DNA from: Zootoca vivipara
Taxonomy: Eukaryota
Assembly: GCF_963506605.1 (NCBI RefSeq)
Contig: NC_083292.1
Location: forward strand, 12,958,001-13,022,000
Length of the DNA stretch: 64,000 nucleotides
Direction: 5' to 3'
Shown here: positions 42,262 through 50,003 of the stretch, piece after piece
How positions within the stretch are numbered: the first letter of the stretch is position 1
How the letters are laid out: each line of letters begins with the position of its first letter
Made by a program: the position numbers

Positions 42262-45200
42262 GCCCCACCCGTCTGGCTGGATTTCCCCAGCCACTCTGGA
42301 CGGCTTACAACATATCTGAAAACATAATAAAAACAGCAATCCTTACAAACTTCCCTAAACAAGGCTGCCTTCAGATGTTTTCTAAAAGTCAGCTTGTTGT
42401 TTATTTCCTTGACATCTGAAGGGAGGGTTTTCCACAGGGCGGGTGCTACTATCAAGAAGGCCCTCTGCCTGGTTCCCTATACTATAGCCTCACTTCTCGC
42501 AGTGAGGGAACCGCCAGAAGACCCTCAGCGGAGGACCTTAGTGTCTTGTCTGAATGATGGAGGTGGAGACGCTCTTTCAGGTATACTGGGCTGAGGCCAT
42601 TCAGGGTTTTAAAGTTCAGCACCAACACTTTGAATTGTGCTCAGAAATTTATTGGGAGCCAGTGAAGATCCTTTAGGACCGGTGTTATATGGTCTCGGCA
42701 GCCACTCACAGTCACCAGTCTAGCTGCCGCATTCTTTATTAGTTGTTTCCGGGTCACCCTCAAAGGTAGCCCCATGTAGAGCTCATTGCAGTATTCCAAG
42801 CGGGAGATAACCAGAACATGCGCCACTCTGGCAAGACAGTCTGTGGGCAGATAGGGTCTCGGCCTGCATACCAGATGGAGCTGGTAAACAGCTGCTGTGG
42901 ACACAGAATTGACCTGCACCTCCATGGACAGCTGTGAGTCCAGTGACTCCCAGGCTGTGCACCTGGTTTTCAGGGACATGGTTACCCCGTTCAGGACCAA
43001 GGGTCCGCCCCCTGTCCCCAAGAACAGTACTTCTTGTCTTGTCAGGATTCAACATCAATCTGTTAGCTGGCATTCACCCACCAACCACTTCAGACACTCA
43101 CACAGGACATTCACTGCCTCCACTGGTTCTGATTTGAAGGAGAGGTAGAGCTGGGTATCATCCACATACTGATGAACACCCAGCCCAAACCCCCTGGTTA
43201 TCTCTCCCAGCAGCTTCATGTAGATGTTAAAAAGCATGGGGGAGAGGACAGAACCCCAAGGCACCCCACAAATGAAAGCCCAGGGGTCCAAACACTCACC
43301 TTCCCAACACCACTTCCTGGGCATGGCCCAGGAGGAAGTTGCGGGACCACTGTATAACAGTGCCCCCAGCTCCCAACTCCTTCAGACAGTCCATAAGGAT
43401 GTCATGATCAATGGTGTCAAAGGCCGCTGAGAGATCCCAGCAGGACCAGGGAACAGCTTTCATCTCAGTCCCTGGCCTGCCAGAGATCATCAACCATCGT
43501 GACCAAGGCAGTTTCAGTCCCATGATGAGGCCTGAATCCCGATTGGAAGGGATCCAAATGGTTTGCATCCTCCAGGTGTGTCTGGAGTTGTTCAACGACC
43601 ATGTGCTCAATCGCCTTGCCCAAGAATGGAAAATTTGAGACTGGGTGATAGTTGGCCATGAAGGCCAGGTCCAAAGATTTTTTTTTTAAGAAGCGGTTTA
43701 ATAACCACCTCTTTGAGCGGGTCTGGGAAGGCACCTGGAACAGAAGAGCACTTTGCACTGCAACATTTTGTTGGAGGTTCTTTGGTCCTCTCTGTCCTGT
43801 AGACGAGGGTTGATTCCTTGCTTATACATTTTGTGTGTTTGTTTGGCAGCCCCCACGAGCCTGCGATGACTACTGGTCTGAATGGAAACATTGCAAGAGC
43901 ATCCCAAATCTGTTCCATTACTACTATACCTATGGGGAAGCACCTTCCTGTAAGCAGTGGAAGAGAGATTATGAGAACTGTAAAGCATGGGAGAAGACAA
44001 AAAGTTCAAAGGCTAAGGTATGCCAAGGGACAAAGCGCGGGTTTGTAACAATGGAAAAATCCATTCATAGGAAGCTGCCTTTTACTCAACCATCAATGTA
44101 TCTAGCTCAGACTAGTCTTCTGTAGGGTGGGCAGATTTCAGATGTGTCAGATCTACGTTGCTTCCCCCCCCCCCCCGTAACCTCAGGATTGAGCAACTAG
44201 AGCAGGCATCCCCAAACCTCAGCCCTCCAGATGTTTTGTTTTTTAAAAAATATTTTTTATTAATTTTACACAATAAAGCAAGATATACATAACATATTCT
44301 CCCCCTTCTTCTACCCCCCCCCCACAAGCCCTCTCCTGCCACGAGAGAGTCCCATGCAAAGGGGATAGTTGAAGGTGGTCCATTTTATAATTGGGTTTGT
44401 CCCCTCCTCCCTCTCTCCCCCTCCCCCGAGCCCCCTCCTGCCACCAGGAAGCTCTAGGATGGCGAGGGAAGATAAAGGAGGGTCTCCACCCAACTATCTA
44501 TCTATACATATCTTATAAAAAAGAAAAGCCCCGCCTCCCCACAAAAAATGAAAAAAGGAAAAGAAAAAAAAACAGAAAAGTAAAAACAGAAAAAAAGAAG
44601 AAATATACCATATCCATTCATTATCCATAAACATTATTTTGAAGGCTTCCCCTACTTCCCCCCTTCCCTGGTCTTCATTTTTAATTCTCCTTTAACAGTT
44701 TTCTTATCATTGTCCCCCTTTTTTGGGCCAATTTTTCTAACCTTATTTTAAATATACTAATCCTTTTTCTTATGACTTCTTACAACATTCTAAATTTAAT
44801 ATTATCATTTTCATAACATATCTTAATTCAACCTATTCAAAATCTACTTTCTTCCCTTGCCTATTTTTTCCTCCAAAAACCTCCATAACTTTTAAACCAT
44901 TTTTTCATTCCCAATTTTAATTCACTATATGACTATCCTCTAATATTCCTTCTCTTCCCCTATTCCCAGCTAACCCCTTCCATTCCAGCAAGTTCCATAA
45001 TCGTCAGTCCAGTTTTCAGTCCTTTTAATCAGTCCTAGTAATCAAATGTCCATTCTCCCTTCATCCCACCCCCTTTCTCCAATGTTTTACAACCCAGCTA
45101 TCATTGTGCCGTGCCCCCCCCCTGGATTTTTCCGCTTCTTTGAACGTCCTTTTCCTTGTTGGTGTTCTGCATTCCTACAAGTTCCTGTCCTTCCCTCCAC

Positions 45201-48200: not shown

Positions 48201-50003
48201 GAGTTGGGGAGTCCGGATTGGAGCTCTGCTGAGCAATTTCGTCCCCGGGACACTCGACCCGGGGTTCTTTGGGGCGCAGCGGGCCCTCCAGATGTTTTGG
48301 ACTACAATTCCCATCTTCCCTGACCACTGGTCCTGTTAGCTAGGGATCATGGGAGTTGTAGGCCAAAACATCTGGAGGGCCGCAGTTTGGGGGTGCCTGA
48401 ACTAGAGCCAGGTGCAAATAACACACCATCAAAACTAAATAATAGAGTGTTCAAAACAGTGGTTTGCCTGCTGCTCTCAAACAATGGTTCAACTCAATCC
48501 CACACAGAGTAAGGAAACAGAAATTGATGAGCATAGAGTGGGTGTATTTCTTAATGCCACTGGGTCTGTTATGAGTAGGACTGGCATTGGTTGCAGCCTA
48601 TCGTGTGGTTCGTAATGATGGTGAGTACAAACTGGTTTTGCAATACAGGCAACCCCCAATTTCTGCTGGAGTTGCATTTTGTGTCATTGCACGCTACAGT
48701 GTAGTGCAAACCCACCCCGTCCGGGTCTGATCAGGCGGGCGCATGCCTGGAATGCATGCAAAATGGTCGTTGTCTGTATGTCCTAACCTAAGCACAACAG
48801 AAATGCTAAATATATTTGGTTCTCTGTACTCCCGTGTTATCCATCCTCAGCATACTCATTCAAGTTTAACAGACATAATGAACTTGGATTAATTTCCGTG
48901 GTTGTACTGAAATGAGTAGAACGGGTGCGAGGAACCTTTGGCTCCCCAGTGTTGCTGAACAACTCCCGTCAGCCCCAGCAAGCATGGGCAATGGCCAGGG
49001 ATGGTGGGGGTTGTAGTTCAGCAAGATCTGGAGGGCCAAAGCTCACCCACACCTGCAGAACTAGCTGGATACAACCCTTATTTTCAATACCAGAACTACT
49101 TTTGCACACAATCTCATGTCTTGTTACCCCCAAGTTTGCTTTATTGTAGCAGCATAACTTTTTTTATCAACTATTATTGTTGTTTATTAGTTCTTTTATA
49201 TACAGTACCACTAAATTGCCAAGGCAGCTTCTAAACGGTTTACAAGTATAAAATCACTAACCAAAATTGGGTTTTTGTTGTTACTATGGGGAGTCGGAAC
49301 CCCTTACTGATCTACCGATAACCCAGATATTTAACCAGTAGATGCCCCCACTCCATCTACCACAAGCCCATCCCTGATGTACATCAACACTGATTGGCAG
49401 CTGCTCCCCACCATTTCACACAGGTGCTTTTCCCTAACCCTTACCTGGAGATGCTGGGGATTGAACCTGGGACATTTTGCAGGCATCCTTCTCTTAATAC
49501 CGAGGGACATAGAAAGCTGCCTTACACTGAGTCAGACCATTGGTCCATCAATCAGTACTGTCTGCACTGGCAGCAGCTCCGGTATTCCAGTCTTTCCCAG
49601 TCCTATCTGGAGGTTGAAGCTGAGACCTTCTGCACCCAAAGCAGGTGTTCTACCAGTGAGCCATGCATGACCTACAAGATGGCTCAGTTGGTAGAGCATG
49701 AGACTCTGGATCTCATTGTTCAATGGGTTCAAGTCCCATTTAGGGCAAAGGTTTCCTACATTGCAGGGGGTTGGACTAGACGATGCTCGTGGCCCCTGAC
49801 AATTCTAAGATTGCAGACAAAGCTTTCTTTTACCAGCTGGGACCATTGGCCTGCCTGGGTCAGGAACGCCTACCCTGAGATGCGTATCCAGCTCTCCAGG
49901 ATTTCACAGTTGTTTCAAGCCCTACCTGGAGACCCCAGTTTGAACCCGAGATCTTCTGTTCTGCATAGCACCATGCTCACTGAGGGCATTGTATGAATAA
50001 TAG

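What the first reader, a model, noticed from the sequence alone, without database searches (positions are those of the whole stretch)
44239..48282. Candidate undescribed family of ~2 kb RT-less retroelements encoding a conserved small acidic protein (MSTK...GVG*)
Seen: two colinear but clearly divergent ~2 kb elements on the minus strand of C22orf39 intron 2. Each has a CpG-rich 5' end with a YY1-type GCCATYTT motif, AATAAA plus an A tail, and a long TSD (19 bp for B, 17 bp for A). Neither has endonuclease or RT sequence. Each has a single homologous ORF at the same position: B 47207-46746 (153 aa) and A from 45472. Shared blocks are MSTK, P.FQ..VL...WE..I, QE....QM, a D/E-rich linker of different but in-frame length, QNE.HH, PL, QN, QR...IQG and W..K...GVG*. 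Established: long TSDs with poly(A) tails mark L1-clade target-primed reverse transcription; HAL1 elements are non-autonomous and encode only an ORF1p, but a typical L1 ORF1p is roughly twice this size or more. Inference: this is an L1-mobilised parasite lineage whose masters kept a micro-protein under selection, perhaps an ORF1p N-terminal/coiled-coil mimic, chaperone or anti-silencing factor. I do not recognise the protein and cannot exclude that the family is already catalogued.
Basis: partly seen in the sequence, partly recalled or inferred. Interest (0 to 1): 0.9.

Follow-up and report, generated by a model that had tools for sequence, protein, structure and literature searches.

The report
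Two nested RT-less poly(A) retroposons
Two roughly 2-kb retroposed elements without a reverse transcriptase, one inserted inside the other, share one layout and one reading frame that has stayed open although its amino-acid sequence has drifted as freely as the non-coding DNA around it.

Summary
On the minus strand, element B (45991-48044) is inserted inside element A (48045-48282 plus 44239-45990). B has a 19/19 target-site duplication (TSD) and A a 17/17 one. Both have AATAAA and an A tail. Intact copies of the host repeat carry A's target once. None of 24 stop-free sense stretches reaches a Pfam cut-off, so no RT, endonuclease or ORF1p was found. A and B are 81% identical in the CpG-rich 5' part and 62% elsewhere. 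With perfect TSDs, that points to recent copies of two old lineages.

The "conserved protein" is only partly supported. The frame is open (B 153 aa; A broken by one frameshift), longer than shuffles, and unlikely to stay stop-free under neutral change (104 of 20000). But differences are flat across codon positions (47/45/48 of 120). Amino-acid identity is the same in all three frames. No relative was found among 1.84 billion representative proteins.

Best reading: non-autonomous Pol II retroposons copied in trans by an L1-type LINE, selected for an open frame rather than a fixed sequence. Copy number and catalogue status could not be checked.

The parts
45991..48044 (-). Element B, complete nested insertion (2054 nt) including its 11-nt A tail (46001-45991)
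   Evidence: It is flanked by a 19/19 TSD.
48045..48282 (-). Element A, 5' piece (238 nt), CpG-rich. It starts 97 nt later than B in the alignment.
   Evidence: 80.8% identical to B 97-333. CpG o/e 0.84.
44239..45990 (-). Element A, 3' piece (1752 nt) including its 6-nt A tail (44244-44239)
48045..48063 (-). TSD of B, upstream copy (19 nt, part of A)
   Evidence: 100% identical to 45972-45990.
45972..45990 (-). TSD of B, downstream copy (19 nt, part of A)
48283..48299 (-). TSD of A, upstream copy (17 nt, part of the host palindromic repeat)
44222..44238 (-). TSD of A, downstream copy (17 nt)
   Evidence: Present once in intact copies of the host repeat.
47719..48044 (-). B 5' CpG-rich leader (promoter-like module), ending at a donor-like GTAAGT (47718-47713). 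It holds GCCATTTT at 47809-47816.
   Evidence: CpG o/e 1.10. 81% identical to A. Motif. No ATG, but 1028 of 5000 shuffles also have none.
48052..48282 (-). A 5' CpG-rich leader, ending at a donor-like GTGAGT (48051-48046). It holds GCCATCTT at 48141-48148.
46746..47207 (-). ORF of B, 153 aa plus stop, intact. Acidic: pI 4.47, D+E 36 of 153.
45061..45472 (-). ORF of A, homologous to the ORF of B, broken by one frameshift. 123 codons are open from the ATG.
46287..46371 (-). B T/C-rich tract in the 3' untranslated part
   Evidence: (D1, D2).
44515..44604 (-). A T/C-rich tract at the homologous place
   Evidence: D1, D2.
46002..46279 (-). B G-rich 3' block. It holds two copies of a ~48-nt unit 100 nt apart, a G-quadruplex-type motif (46214-46186) and AATAAA (46017-46012).
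   Evidence: 71% identical to A; D4, D5, D12.
44245..44501 (-). A G-rich 3' block. It holds the same two-unit repeat 102 nt apart, a G-quadruplex-type motif (44435-44401) and AATAAA (44261-44256).
   Evidence: (D4, D5, D12).
48283..48405 (.). Host palindromic MITE-like repeat, the part on the 5' side of A
   Evidence: mir-5408-like, below gathering score; I1, I2.
44197..44238 (.). Host palindromic MITE-like repeat, the part on the 3' side of A
   Evidence: (I1: 42 nt, 86% complementary to 48364-48405).

Best explanation
A and B are recent insertions from two long-separated lineages of one family of non-autonomous, polyadenylated retroposons. The likely cycle has three steps.

(1) RNA polymerase II transcribes the element from an internal, CpG-rich promoter-like module in its first ~330 nt. 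This is inferred from CpG content and from that module being the best conserved part.

(2) The RNA ends at the element's own AATAAA and receives a poly(A) tail. The sequence shows this directly.

(3) The endonuclease and reverse transcriptase of an autonomous L1-type LINE, supplied in trans, copy it into a nick beside an A run by target-primed reverse transcription. That leaves 17-19-nt duplications. The footprints are shown; the partner is inferred.

The single reading frame is kept open by selection on the source lineages, but its amino-acid sequence is not constrained. Most likely it is translated. What matters would then be either translation itself or a fast-evolving, acidic and largely disordered product (helices, then an acidic linker, then a helix) that helps the RNA compete for the LINE machinery. 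This last step is inference.

The sense-strand G-rich 3' block, with a quadruplex-type motif kept at the same place in both, probably plays the part that the G-rich 3' UTR plays in L1 and SVA (inferred).
For: Insertion footprints:
- TSDs are 19/19 and 17/17, with a paralogous empty site.
- Each element has AATAAA plus an A tail.
- Each TSD begins 1-2 nt before an A4-A6 run.

Non-autonomy:
- All 24 of 24 stop-free sense stretches of 45 aa or more were scanned. None reaches a Pfam cut-off and none is RT, endonuclease or ORF1p.
- The elements are only 2.0 kb long.

Not Pol III, not LTR:
- No tRNA, 7SL or 5S match lies inside the elements.
- There are no terminal direct repeats.

Young copies of old lineages:
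- There are 0 mismatches in 36 TSD positions, while A and B differ at 38% of aligned body positions.
- The 5' CpGs are retained.
- A is older than B. B is nested in it, and A has TG/CA at 5 of the 7 CpGs that only B keeps.

Module conservation is 0.81 (5' leader), 0.62 (pre-ORF, ORF, post-ORF) and 0.70-0.71 (T-rich tract and 3' block).

Frame kept open:
- Frame 0 has 0 and 0 stops. The other frames have 5/6 and 12/8 stops over the same columns.
- Only 104 of 20000 random-substitution nulls stay stop-free.
- The ORFs exceed shuffles, which reached their length in 11/2000 and 3/2000 trials.

A quadruplex-type motif lies at the homologous place of both 3' blocks. They are 2 of only 5 such clusters on that strand of the window. 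Such motifs are reported in the 3' UTR of L1 and in SVA (PMC4407331, abstract read).

Lizards carry many divergent, young, low-copy L1 families side by side: 20 in Anolis (PMC3787681, passages read). That fits parasite lineages which diverge while still active.
Against: - Only two copies were seen. Copy number, activity and the L1 partner are unknown.
- No autonomous LINE with matching ends lies in the window.
- Coding signals are weak. Codon-position differences are flat (47/45/48).
- pN/pS is 0.66, against a neutral null of 0.79 +- 0.12, and 15% of nulls are as low.
- The ORF has no relatives.
- Language-model recognition is low: 1219, where known families usually reach 2300.
- The AlphaFold model is poor: pLDDT 48, pTM 0.29.
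- Seven (B) and four (A) upstream ATGs lie between the leader and the ORF start. That would hinder scanning on unspliced RNA.
- The ATG-free leaders are not beyond chance: 1028/5000 and 545/5000 shuffles also lack ATG.
- GCCATYTT occurs at chance frequency in the window.
- The nick sites do not match the mammalian L1 consensus exactly. That consensus is recalled, not tested.
Confidence: 0.6

Rival explanations
1. Non-coding composite retroposon, working like SVA. The RNA alone is the functional unit, with a promoter module, a G-rich 3' block and a poly(A) signal. The open frame is a relic or a by-product of purine-rich, three-base-periodic sequence, and no protein matters.
For: - Codon-position pattern is flat, 47/45/48 of 120.
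- Amino-acid identity is equal in all three frames: 42/120, 37/107, 36/100.
- ORF identity, 0.617, equals that of the flanks.
- The best conserved blocks straddle the ORF borders rather than fill the ORF.
- No homologue was found.
- Atlas recognition is low and the structure model is poor.
- Upstream ATGs number 7 and 4.
- The in-frame indels sit in GAN-rich sequence.
Against: - The frame stays stop-free in both lineages where only 104 of 20000 neutral nulls do.
- Both ORFs exceed shuffles, which reached their length in 11/2000 and 3/2000 trials.
- The start codon, its context and the stop lie at homologous places.
Confidence: 0.3
2. Internal-deletion ('bipartite') derivative of an autonomous lizard L1. 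The 5' leader and the 3' block would be the L1's own UTRs. The ORF would be what is left of the fast-evolving N-terminal part of its ORF1, that is, a shortened HAL1-like element. This is compatible with the best explanation and would name the origin.
For: - The TPRT footprints are of L1 type.
- A G-rich 3' block with a quadruplex-type motif is as reported for L1 3' UTRs (PMC4407331 abstract).
- The leader is CpG-rich and holds a GCCATYTT site.
- Non-autonomous LINEs that keep only the 5' and 3' parts, with or without ORF1, are a known kind (PMC5786205, passages read).
Against: - No ORF1p family hit came back, even at E <= 10.
- No ORF1p came back from PDB or from the protein searches, including longer proteins.
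- The window holds no L1 whose ends match the element.
- PMC5786205 (passages) lists ORF-absent bipartite forms only for RTE, Ingi, Vingi and R2.
Confidence: 0.25
3. Retrocopies (processed pseudogenes with a retained intron) of two paralogous host genes that encode a small acidic protein.
For: - The layout is gene-like. There is a CpG-rich first part ending at GTRAGT, an AG after a conserved 17-nt block just before the ATG, one ORF, a long 3' UTR and AATAAA.
- Retrocopies are reported in non-mammalian chordates, lizard included (PMC3136929, search listing only).
Against: - No protein relative was found among 1.84 billion representatives or in the word-index searches, which include annotated proteomes.
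- Two independent young copies would both have to keep the same unspliced stretch.
- There is no purifying selection on the protein.
Confidence: 0.05

Closest known systems
HAL1 ('half-L1') of mammals
   Same: It is a non-autonomous element of the L1 world that lacks ORF2 and carries a single ORF, with L1-type insertion footprints. HAL1 is described as a non-autonomous L1 derivative that encodes only ORF1p and arose several times (PMC5753468, passages read).
   Different: The ORF here is 153 aa and shows no likeness to ORF1p in any search. Descent from an L1 could not be tested. The primary HAL1 paper (Bao and Jurka 2010, PMC2923044) is not held.
SVA and other composite L1-dependent retroposons of primates
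   Same: About 2 kb, transcribed by Pol II, with its own AATAAA, an A tail, long TSDs and no RT. It has G-rich quadruplex-type sequence and an internal repeated unit (PMC4407331 abstract).
   Different: No part matches another repeat of the window. Only two ~100-nt-spaced units are present, not a VNTR. A reading frame is kept open. The structure of SVA is recalled, not tested here.
HeT-A of Drosophila and Ag-Sponge of Anopheles (ORF1-present non-autonomous LINEs)
   Same: These are RT-less elements that encode one protein and rely on a partner's RT. The protein is thought to multimerise with the partner's protein (PMC5786205, passages read). This is what the element here may work like.
   Different: They come from other LINE clades (Jockey, CR1), and their protein is a Gag/ORF1p homologue. 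Here no such homology is seen.
Spliced or internally deleted L1 copies and processed retrocopies made by L1 in trans
   Same: The same footprints, and a donor-like site within the leader.
   Different: Two colinear copies 38% apart with perfect TSDs mark evolving lineages, not one-off by-products. Splice donors in the L1 leader are recalled, not tested.

Membership tests
Retroposon inserted by L1-type target-primed reverse transcription | Target-site duplication of roughly 7-20 nt flanking the whole insert | tested here: met
   19/19 (B) and 17/17 (A). Intact copies of the host repeat carry A's target once.
Retroposon inserted by L1-type target-primed reverse transcription | 3' poly(A) tail after a polyadenylation signal | tested here: met
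   AATAAA at 46017-46012 and 44261-44256. Tails are 11 and 6 A.
Retroposon inserted by L1-type target-primed reverse transcription | Nick at a T-run/A site (consensus recalled from mammalian L1) | tested here: inconclusive
   Each TSD starts 1-2 nt before an A4-A6 run. That is close to the recalled consensus but not identical. The preference of lizard L1 endonucleases was not on hand.
Non-autonomous element | No reverse transcriptase or endonuclease of its own | tested here: met
   24 of 24 stop-free sense stretches of 45 aa or more were scanned. None reaches a Pfam cut-off and none is RT, EN or ORF1p. Shorter or very decayed remnants cannot be excluded.
Non-autonomous element | An autonomous partner in the same genome | not testable with these tools
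   No squamate genome was on hand. No LINE with matching ends lies in the window.
HAL1 / ORF1-present non-autonomous LINE | The single ORF is a homologue of L1 ORF1p | tested here: not met
   Pfam found nothing for B at E <= 10, and only sub-threshold DUF4636 for A. PDB's best match was E 0.15 to an unrelated protein. There were 0 hits among 1,835,955,588 representatives. Profile word searches found none among near and longer lengths.
HAL1 / bipartite non-autonomous LINE | 5' and 3' ends shared with an autonomous LINE | not testable with these tools
SVA-like composite retroposon | Built from recognisable pieces of other repeats plus a variable tandem array | tested here: inconclusive
   No part matches another repeat within the 64 kb. 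A two-unit repeat about 100 nt apart is present in both 3' blocks (D4). Repeat libraries were not on hand.
SINE | Pol III head derived from tRNA, 7SL or 5S RNA | tested here: not met
   No such match lies inside 44239-48282. The length is 2 kb.
LTR retrotransposon or endogenous retrovirus | Terminal direct repeats (LTRs, or R at both RNA ends) | tested here: not met
   No self-similarity was found between the 5' and 3' ends of either element.
Processed retrocopy of a host gene | A parent protein-coding gene with the same protein | tested here: not met
   No protein relative was found in any search. Parent loci in squamate genomes could not be looked for.
Protein-coding gene under purifying selection | Excess of third-position and synonymous change, with frame-specific amino-acid conservation | tested here: not met
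   Differences are 47/45/48 of 120 by codon position. Identity is 42/120, against 37/107 and 36/100 in the other frames. pN/pS is 0.66 against a null of 0.79 +- 0.12.

The most novel reading that the evidence does not exclude
A squamate lineage of L1-dependent retroposons that carry their own small acidic protein, unrelated to ORF1p. The gene would be kept open over a divergence deep enough to erase most of its sequence. That would mark a fast-evolving factor caught in a conflict with the LINE partner or with host silencing. It would be a kind of protein-coding LINE parasite not so far described in vertebrates, possibly expressed from a spliced message while the unspliced RNA is the copy template.
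Probability: 0.2. Interest if true: 0.7.

Novelty: new variant of a known kind. Interest (0 to 1): 0.4.

Why it matters
Non-autonomous elements that ride on L1 are known mainly as RNA-only parasites (SINEs, SVA) or as ORF1p-carriers (HAL1). Here a frame unrelated to ORF1p has stayed open in two lineages that differ at 38% of positions, while its sequence drifts like non-coding DNA. That would be a natural case for asking what a LINE parasite gains from being translated. It would also give a marker for the many co-existing L1 families of lizards. If the frame proves to be a relic, the pair is still a clean example of a nested L1-type insertion in a squamate intron, dated by its duplications.

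Tried and rejected
1. A second conserved gene in the 3' block. Both elements have open stretches of 83 and 84 aa, but they share only 38 residues in frame (15 identical), and A's stretch opens with I where B's opens with M. A second pair gave no alignment. G-rich sequence simply lacks stops. Rejected.

2. An ATG-free leader as a sign of a true 5' UTR. Both leaders have 0 ATG, but so do 1028/5000 and 545/5000 dinucleotide shuffles. Not significant.

3. The GCCATYTT motif as evidence on its own. It has 8 matches in the window against 8.04 expected. Only its place inside a conserved block counts.

4. In-frame indels as evidence of selection. The 51-nt and 6-nt indels lie in GAN-rich, three-base-periodic sequence, and the third indel in the ORF columns is 7 nt. 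Weak.

5. Retroviral RNA layout (R at both ends). No end-to-end similarity was found. Rejected.

6. Rfam. Only sub-threshold chance-level matches lie inside the elements, for example HYMAI at 25.3 bits against a gathering score of 80.

7. Sub-threshold Pfam matches were taken as noise: DUF4636 (E 0.032), a holin family (0.19), Pept_S41_N (0.031), DUF7772 (0.0021; 18.8 bits against a cut-off of 25, in a stretch that overlaps the start of A's ORF in another frame) and FXa_inhibition (0.055).

8. Fold search was not run. The only model has pLDDT 48 and pTM 0.29, and the tool says such models give meaningless matches.

9. The long open stretches elsewhere in the window (37208-38002, 24708-25397) look non-coding and have no Pfam match.

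10. Six literature searches found no description of such a squamate element. They cover only the held open-access library, and Repbase Reports, Dfam and paper supplements were not visible.

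
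Full report
WHAT IS THERE

The window has no N. The sense strand of both elements is the minus strand.
- Element B runs 48044..45991 (2054 nt).
- Element A is split by B into a 5' piece, 48282..48045 (238 nt), and a 3' piece, 45990..44239 (1752 nt).

I compared the pieces apart and did not cut B out of A. B and the A 3' piece are colinear from the donor-like site to the A tail (1043 identical columns of 2182). The A 5' piece aligns with B positions 97-333 at 80.8%, so in the alignment A starts 97 nt later than B.

From 5' to 3', both elements have the same modules:
- a CpG-rich leader;
- a donor-like GTAAGT or GTGAGT;
- about 500 nt with no feature I could name;
- one ORF;
- about 370 nt of 3' untranslated sequence;
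- a T/C-rich tract of 85-90 nt;
- a G-rich block of about 260-280 nt;
- AATAAA and an A tail.

THE INSERTIONS ARE REAL AND OF L1 TYPE

B is flanked by a 19/19 duplication (48063-48045 and 45990-45972). A is flanked by a 17/17 duplication (48299-48283 and 44238-44222).

A sits inside a short palindromic repeat that occurs at 13 or more places in the window (28 blastn alignments). The repeat's arms on either side of A are 86% complementary over 42 nt (I1). Two intact copies of that repeat, at 40.6 kb and 30.3 kb, carry the 17-nt target once. They read straight through where A's ends break the alignment. This is a paralogous empty site.

AATAAA precedes tails of 11 A (B) and 6 A (A). Each duplication starts 1-2 nt before a run of 4-6 A.

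Long duplications plus a poly(A) tail are the established mark of L1-clade target-primed reverse transcription. The exact nick consensus I recall for mammalian L1 is not matched base for base. The elements lie antisense to the host gene, whose neighbouring exon matches PANTS-like PF11326 at 4.3e-15.

NO ENZYME OF THEIR OWN

All 24 of 24 stop-free sense-strand stretches of 45 aa or more were scanned against Pfam. None reaches a curated cut-off, and no RT, endonuclease or L1 ORF1p family appears even among the sub-threshold rows.

There is no tRNA, 7SL or 5S head and no terminal repeat.

YOUNG COPIES OF OLD LINEAGES

Identity between A and B, ignoring gaps, varies by module.

| Module | Identity |
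|---|---|
| 5' leader | 0.81 |
| Before the ORF | 0.622 |
| ORF | 0.617 |
| After the ORF | 0.623 |
| T-rich tract | 0.70 |
| 3' block | 0.71 |

If the 38% difference had built up after insertion, the 36 duplicated positions should show a dozen mismatches. They show none (inference).

The leaders also keep their CpGs: observed/expected is 1.10 and 0.84, against 0.33-0.36 in the rest and 0.40 in the window.

A is the older copy. B is nested in it, and A has TG or CA at 5 of the 7 CpGs that only B keeps.

So the difference arose in the source lineages while they were active, and the shared layout has been kept through it. This fits what is reported for lizards, where many divergent, young, low-copy L1 families co-exist (20 in Anolis; PMC3787681, passages read).

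THE READING FRAME

B's ORF (47207-46746) is intact at 153 aa. A's homologue (45472-45061) is broken by one frameshift, and 123 codons are open from its ATG. Both products are acidic (pI 4.47 and 4.58).

For a real, selected frame:
- Each ORF is longer than the longest sense ORF of dinucleotide shuffles, which reached B's length in 11/2000 trials and A's in 3/2000.
- Over the aligned columns, the reading frame has 0 and 0 stops. The other frames have 5 and 6, and 12 and 8.
- Only 104 of 20000 random-substitution nulls at the observed 140 of 360 differences stay stop-free.
- The start, its context and the stop sit at homologous places.

Against a protein conserved in sequence:
- Differences by codon position are 47, 45 and 48 of 120.
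- Amino-acid identity is 42/120 in frame, against 37/107 and 36/100 out of frame. The null gives 41.6 +- 3.4.
- pN/pS is 0.66 against a null of 0.79 +- 0.12, and 15% of nulls are as low.
- The two in-frame indels (51 and 6 nt) lie in GAN-rich sequence with a three-base period, where slippage gives in-frame changes without selection. The third indel is 7 nt.

No relative was found in any search:

| Search | Result |
|---|---|
| Word-index protein search | 0 of 8 candidates scored |
| Profile search, similar lengths | 0 of 55 candidates |
| Profile search, longer proteins | 0 of 1215 candidates |
| 1,835,955,588 representative proteins | 0 at E <= 0.001 |
| PDB | nothing meaningful (best E 0.15) |
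| ESM Atlas | best score 0.76, recognition 1219 |

A caution applies. An A-like protein would probably fall below that search's threshold when queried with B. This is an estimate.

The AlphaFold model from the two-row alignment gives helices 8-24, 29-47 and 105-135 around a disordered acidic middle. Its pLDDT is 48 and pTM 0.29, so I ran no fold search.

A POSSIBLE SPLICE

Both leaders end at a strong donor-like site (47718-47713 and 48051-48046). A conserved 17-nt block followed by AG lies just upstream of each ATG. Between these sites lie 7 (B) and 4 (A) ATGs.

A two-exon message would make the ORF's ATG the first one. This is inference only. The ATG-free leaders are not beyond chance.

I looked at the model piece by piece: the leader has no ORF of note, and the ORF piece was searched as above. 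I left the joined step out.

OTHER KEPT FEATURES

A quadruplex-type G-run motif lies at the homologous place of both 3' blocks (46214-46186 and 44435-44401). These are 2 of only 5 such clusters on that strand of the window, with none on the elements' antisense strand.

Each 3' block holds two copies of a ~48-nt unit, 100 and 102 nt apart (D4). Quadruplex-type sequences are reported in the 3' UTR of L1 and in SVA (PMC4407331, abstract read).

GCCATYTT is present in both leaders, inside a conserved run. As a bare motif it is at chance frequency (8 against 8.04).

HOW IT MOST LIKELY WORKS

- Shown: insertion by a mechanism that leaves long duplications and an A tail; no enzyme of its own; two diverged lineages with one layout; a frame that stays open.
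- Inferred: Pol II transcription from the leader; copying in trans by an L1-type LINE; selection for translation or for a fast-evolving acidic product rather than for a fixed sequence.

COMPARISON WITH WHAT IS KNOWN

The element works like HAL1, HeT-A or Ag-Sponge, which are RT-less and carry one ORF (PMC5753468 and PMC5786205, passages read). In size and G-rich 3' part it works like SVA.

It is not a member of HAL1 as defined, because its ORF is not an ORF1p homologue. Descent from an L1 could not be tested.

WHAT STAYED UNCHECKED

- Copy number in the genome, other squamate genomes, Dfam and Repbase, the L1 partner, expression and translation were not checked.
- No squamate sequence other than this window was on hand.
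The bacterial and archaeal genome contigs would not bear on the question and was not used.
- Supplements of squamate repeat surveys, which may list this family, were closed.
- Six literature searches found no description. They cover only the held open-access library.
- Nothing in the window was taken for human, and no contig was fetched.

VERDICT

This is best filed as a new variant of a known kind (an L1-dependent non-autonomous retroposon), of moderate interest. The claim of a conserved protein is downgraded to a frame kept open without sequence constraint.

Noticed in passing
window 48283-48405 with 44197-44238; also near 6.3, 10.9, 14.8, 28.9, 30.3, 37.4, 40.6, 42.1, 49.0, 52.7, 54.6, 59.8 and 62.0 kb: A palindromic MITE-like repeat of about 125-145 nt is very common in the window (28 blastn alignments at 13 or more places). 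It gives sub-threshold matches to the microRNA family mir-5408 (46.8 bits against a gathering score of 90).
   Followed up: partly
window 49672-49746 (+): A tRNA-Gln(CTG)-like sequence (ARAGORN; Rfam tRNA 40.5 bits, above the gathering score). It may be a tRNA gene or the head of a tRNA-derived SINE. I did not decide which.
   Followed up: no
window 52005-52448 (-): An open stretch of 148 aa matches Pfam MRP-L28 (mitochondrial ribosomal protein) at 5.8e-32, covering profile positions 57-157 in one piece. It is a neighbouring gene exon or a retrocopy. From recall, the human counterpart lies next to C22orf39.
   Followed up: no
window 43835-44125 (+): An exon-like ORF with a PANTS-like domain (PF11326, 4.3e-15), the host gene of the intron that holds the elements. 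The elements lie antisense to it.
   Followed up: partly
window 48045-48063 and 45972-45990: B landed on A's donor-like GTGAGTA, so this site is part of B's duplication and is now present twice.
   Followed up: partly
window 15188-15415 and 60236-60443: Two tandem duplications: 115 nt x 2.0 (95% matches) and 90 nt x 2.3 (90% matches). The second is flanked by 16-nt repeats of the same word.
   Followed up: no
window 45430-45585 (-): A stop-free stretch that overlaps the start of A's ORF in another frame gives a sub-threshold match to DUF7772 (E 0.0021, 18.8 bits against a cut-off of 25). B has no open stretch at the homologous place. I took this for noise.
   Followed up: no
window 44001-48000: There is strong strand asymmetry over the two elements. 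GC skew on the plus strand is -0.17 to -0.44, against about 0 around them. So the sense strand is rich in G and A, as in many retroelements.
   Followed up: no
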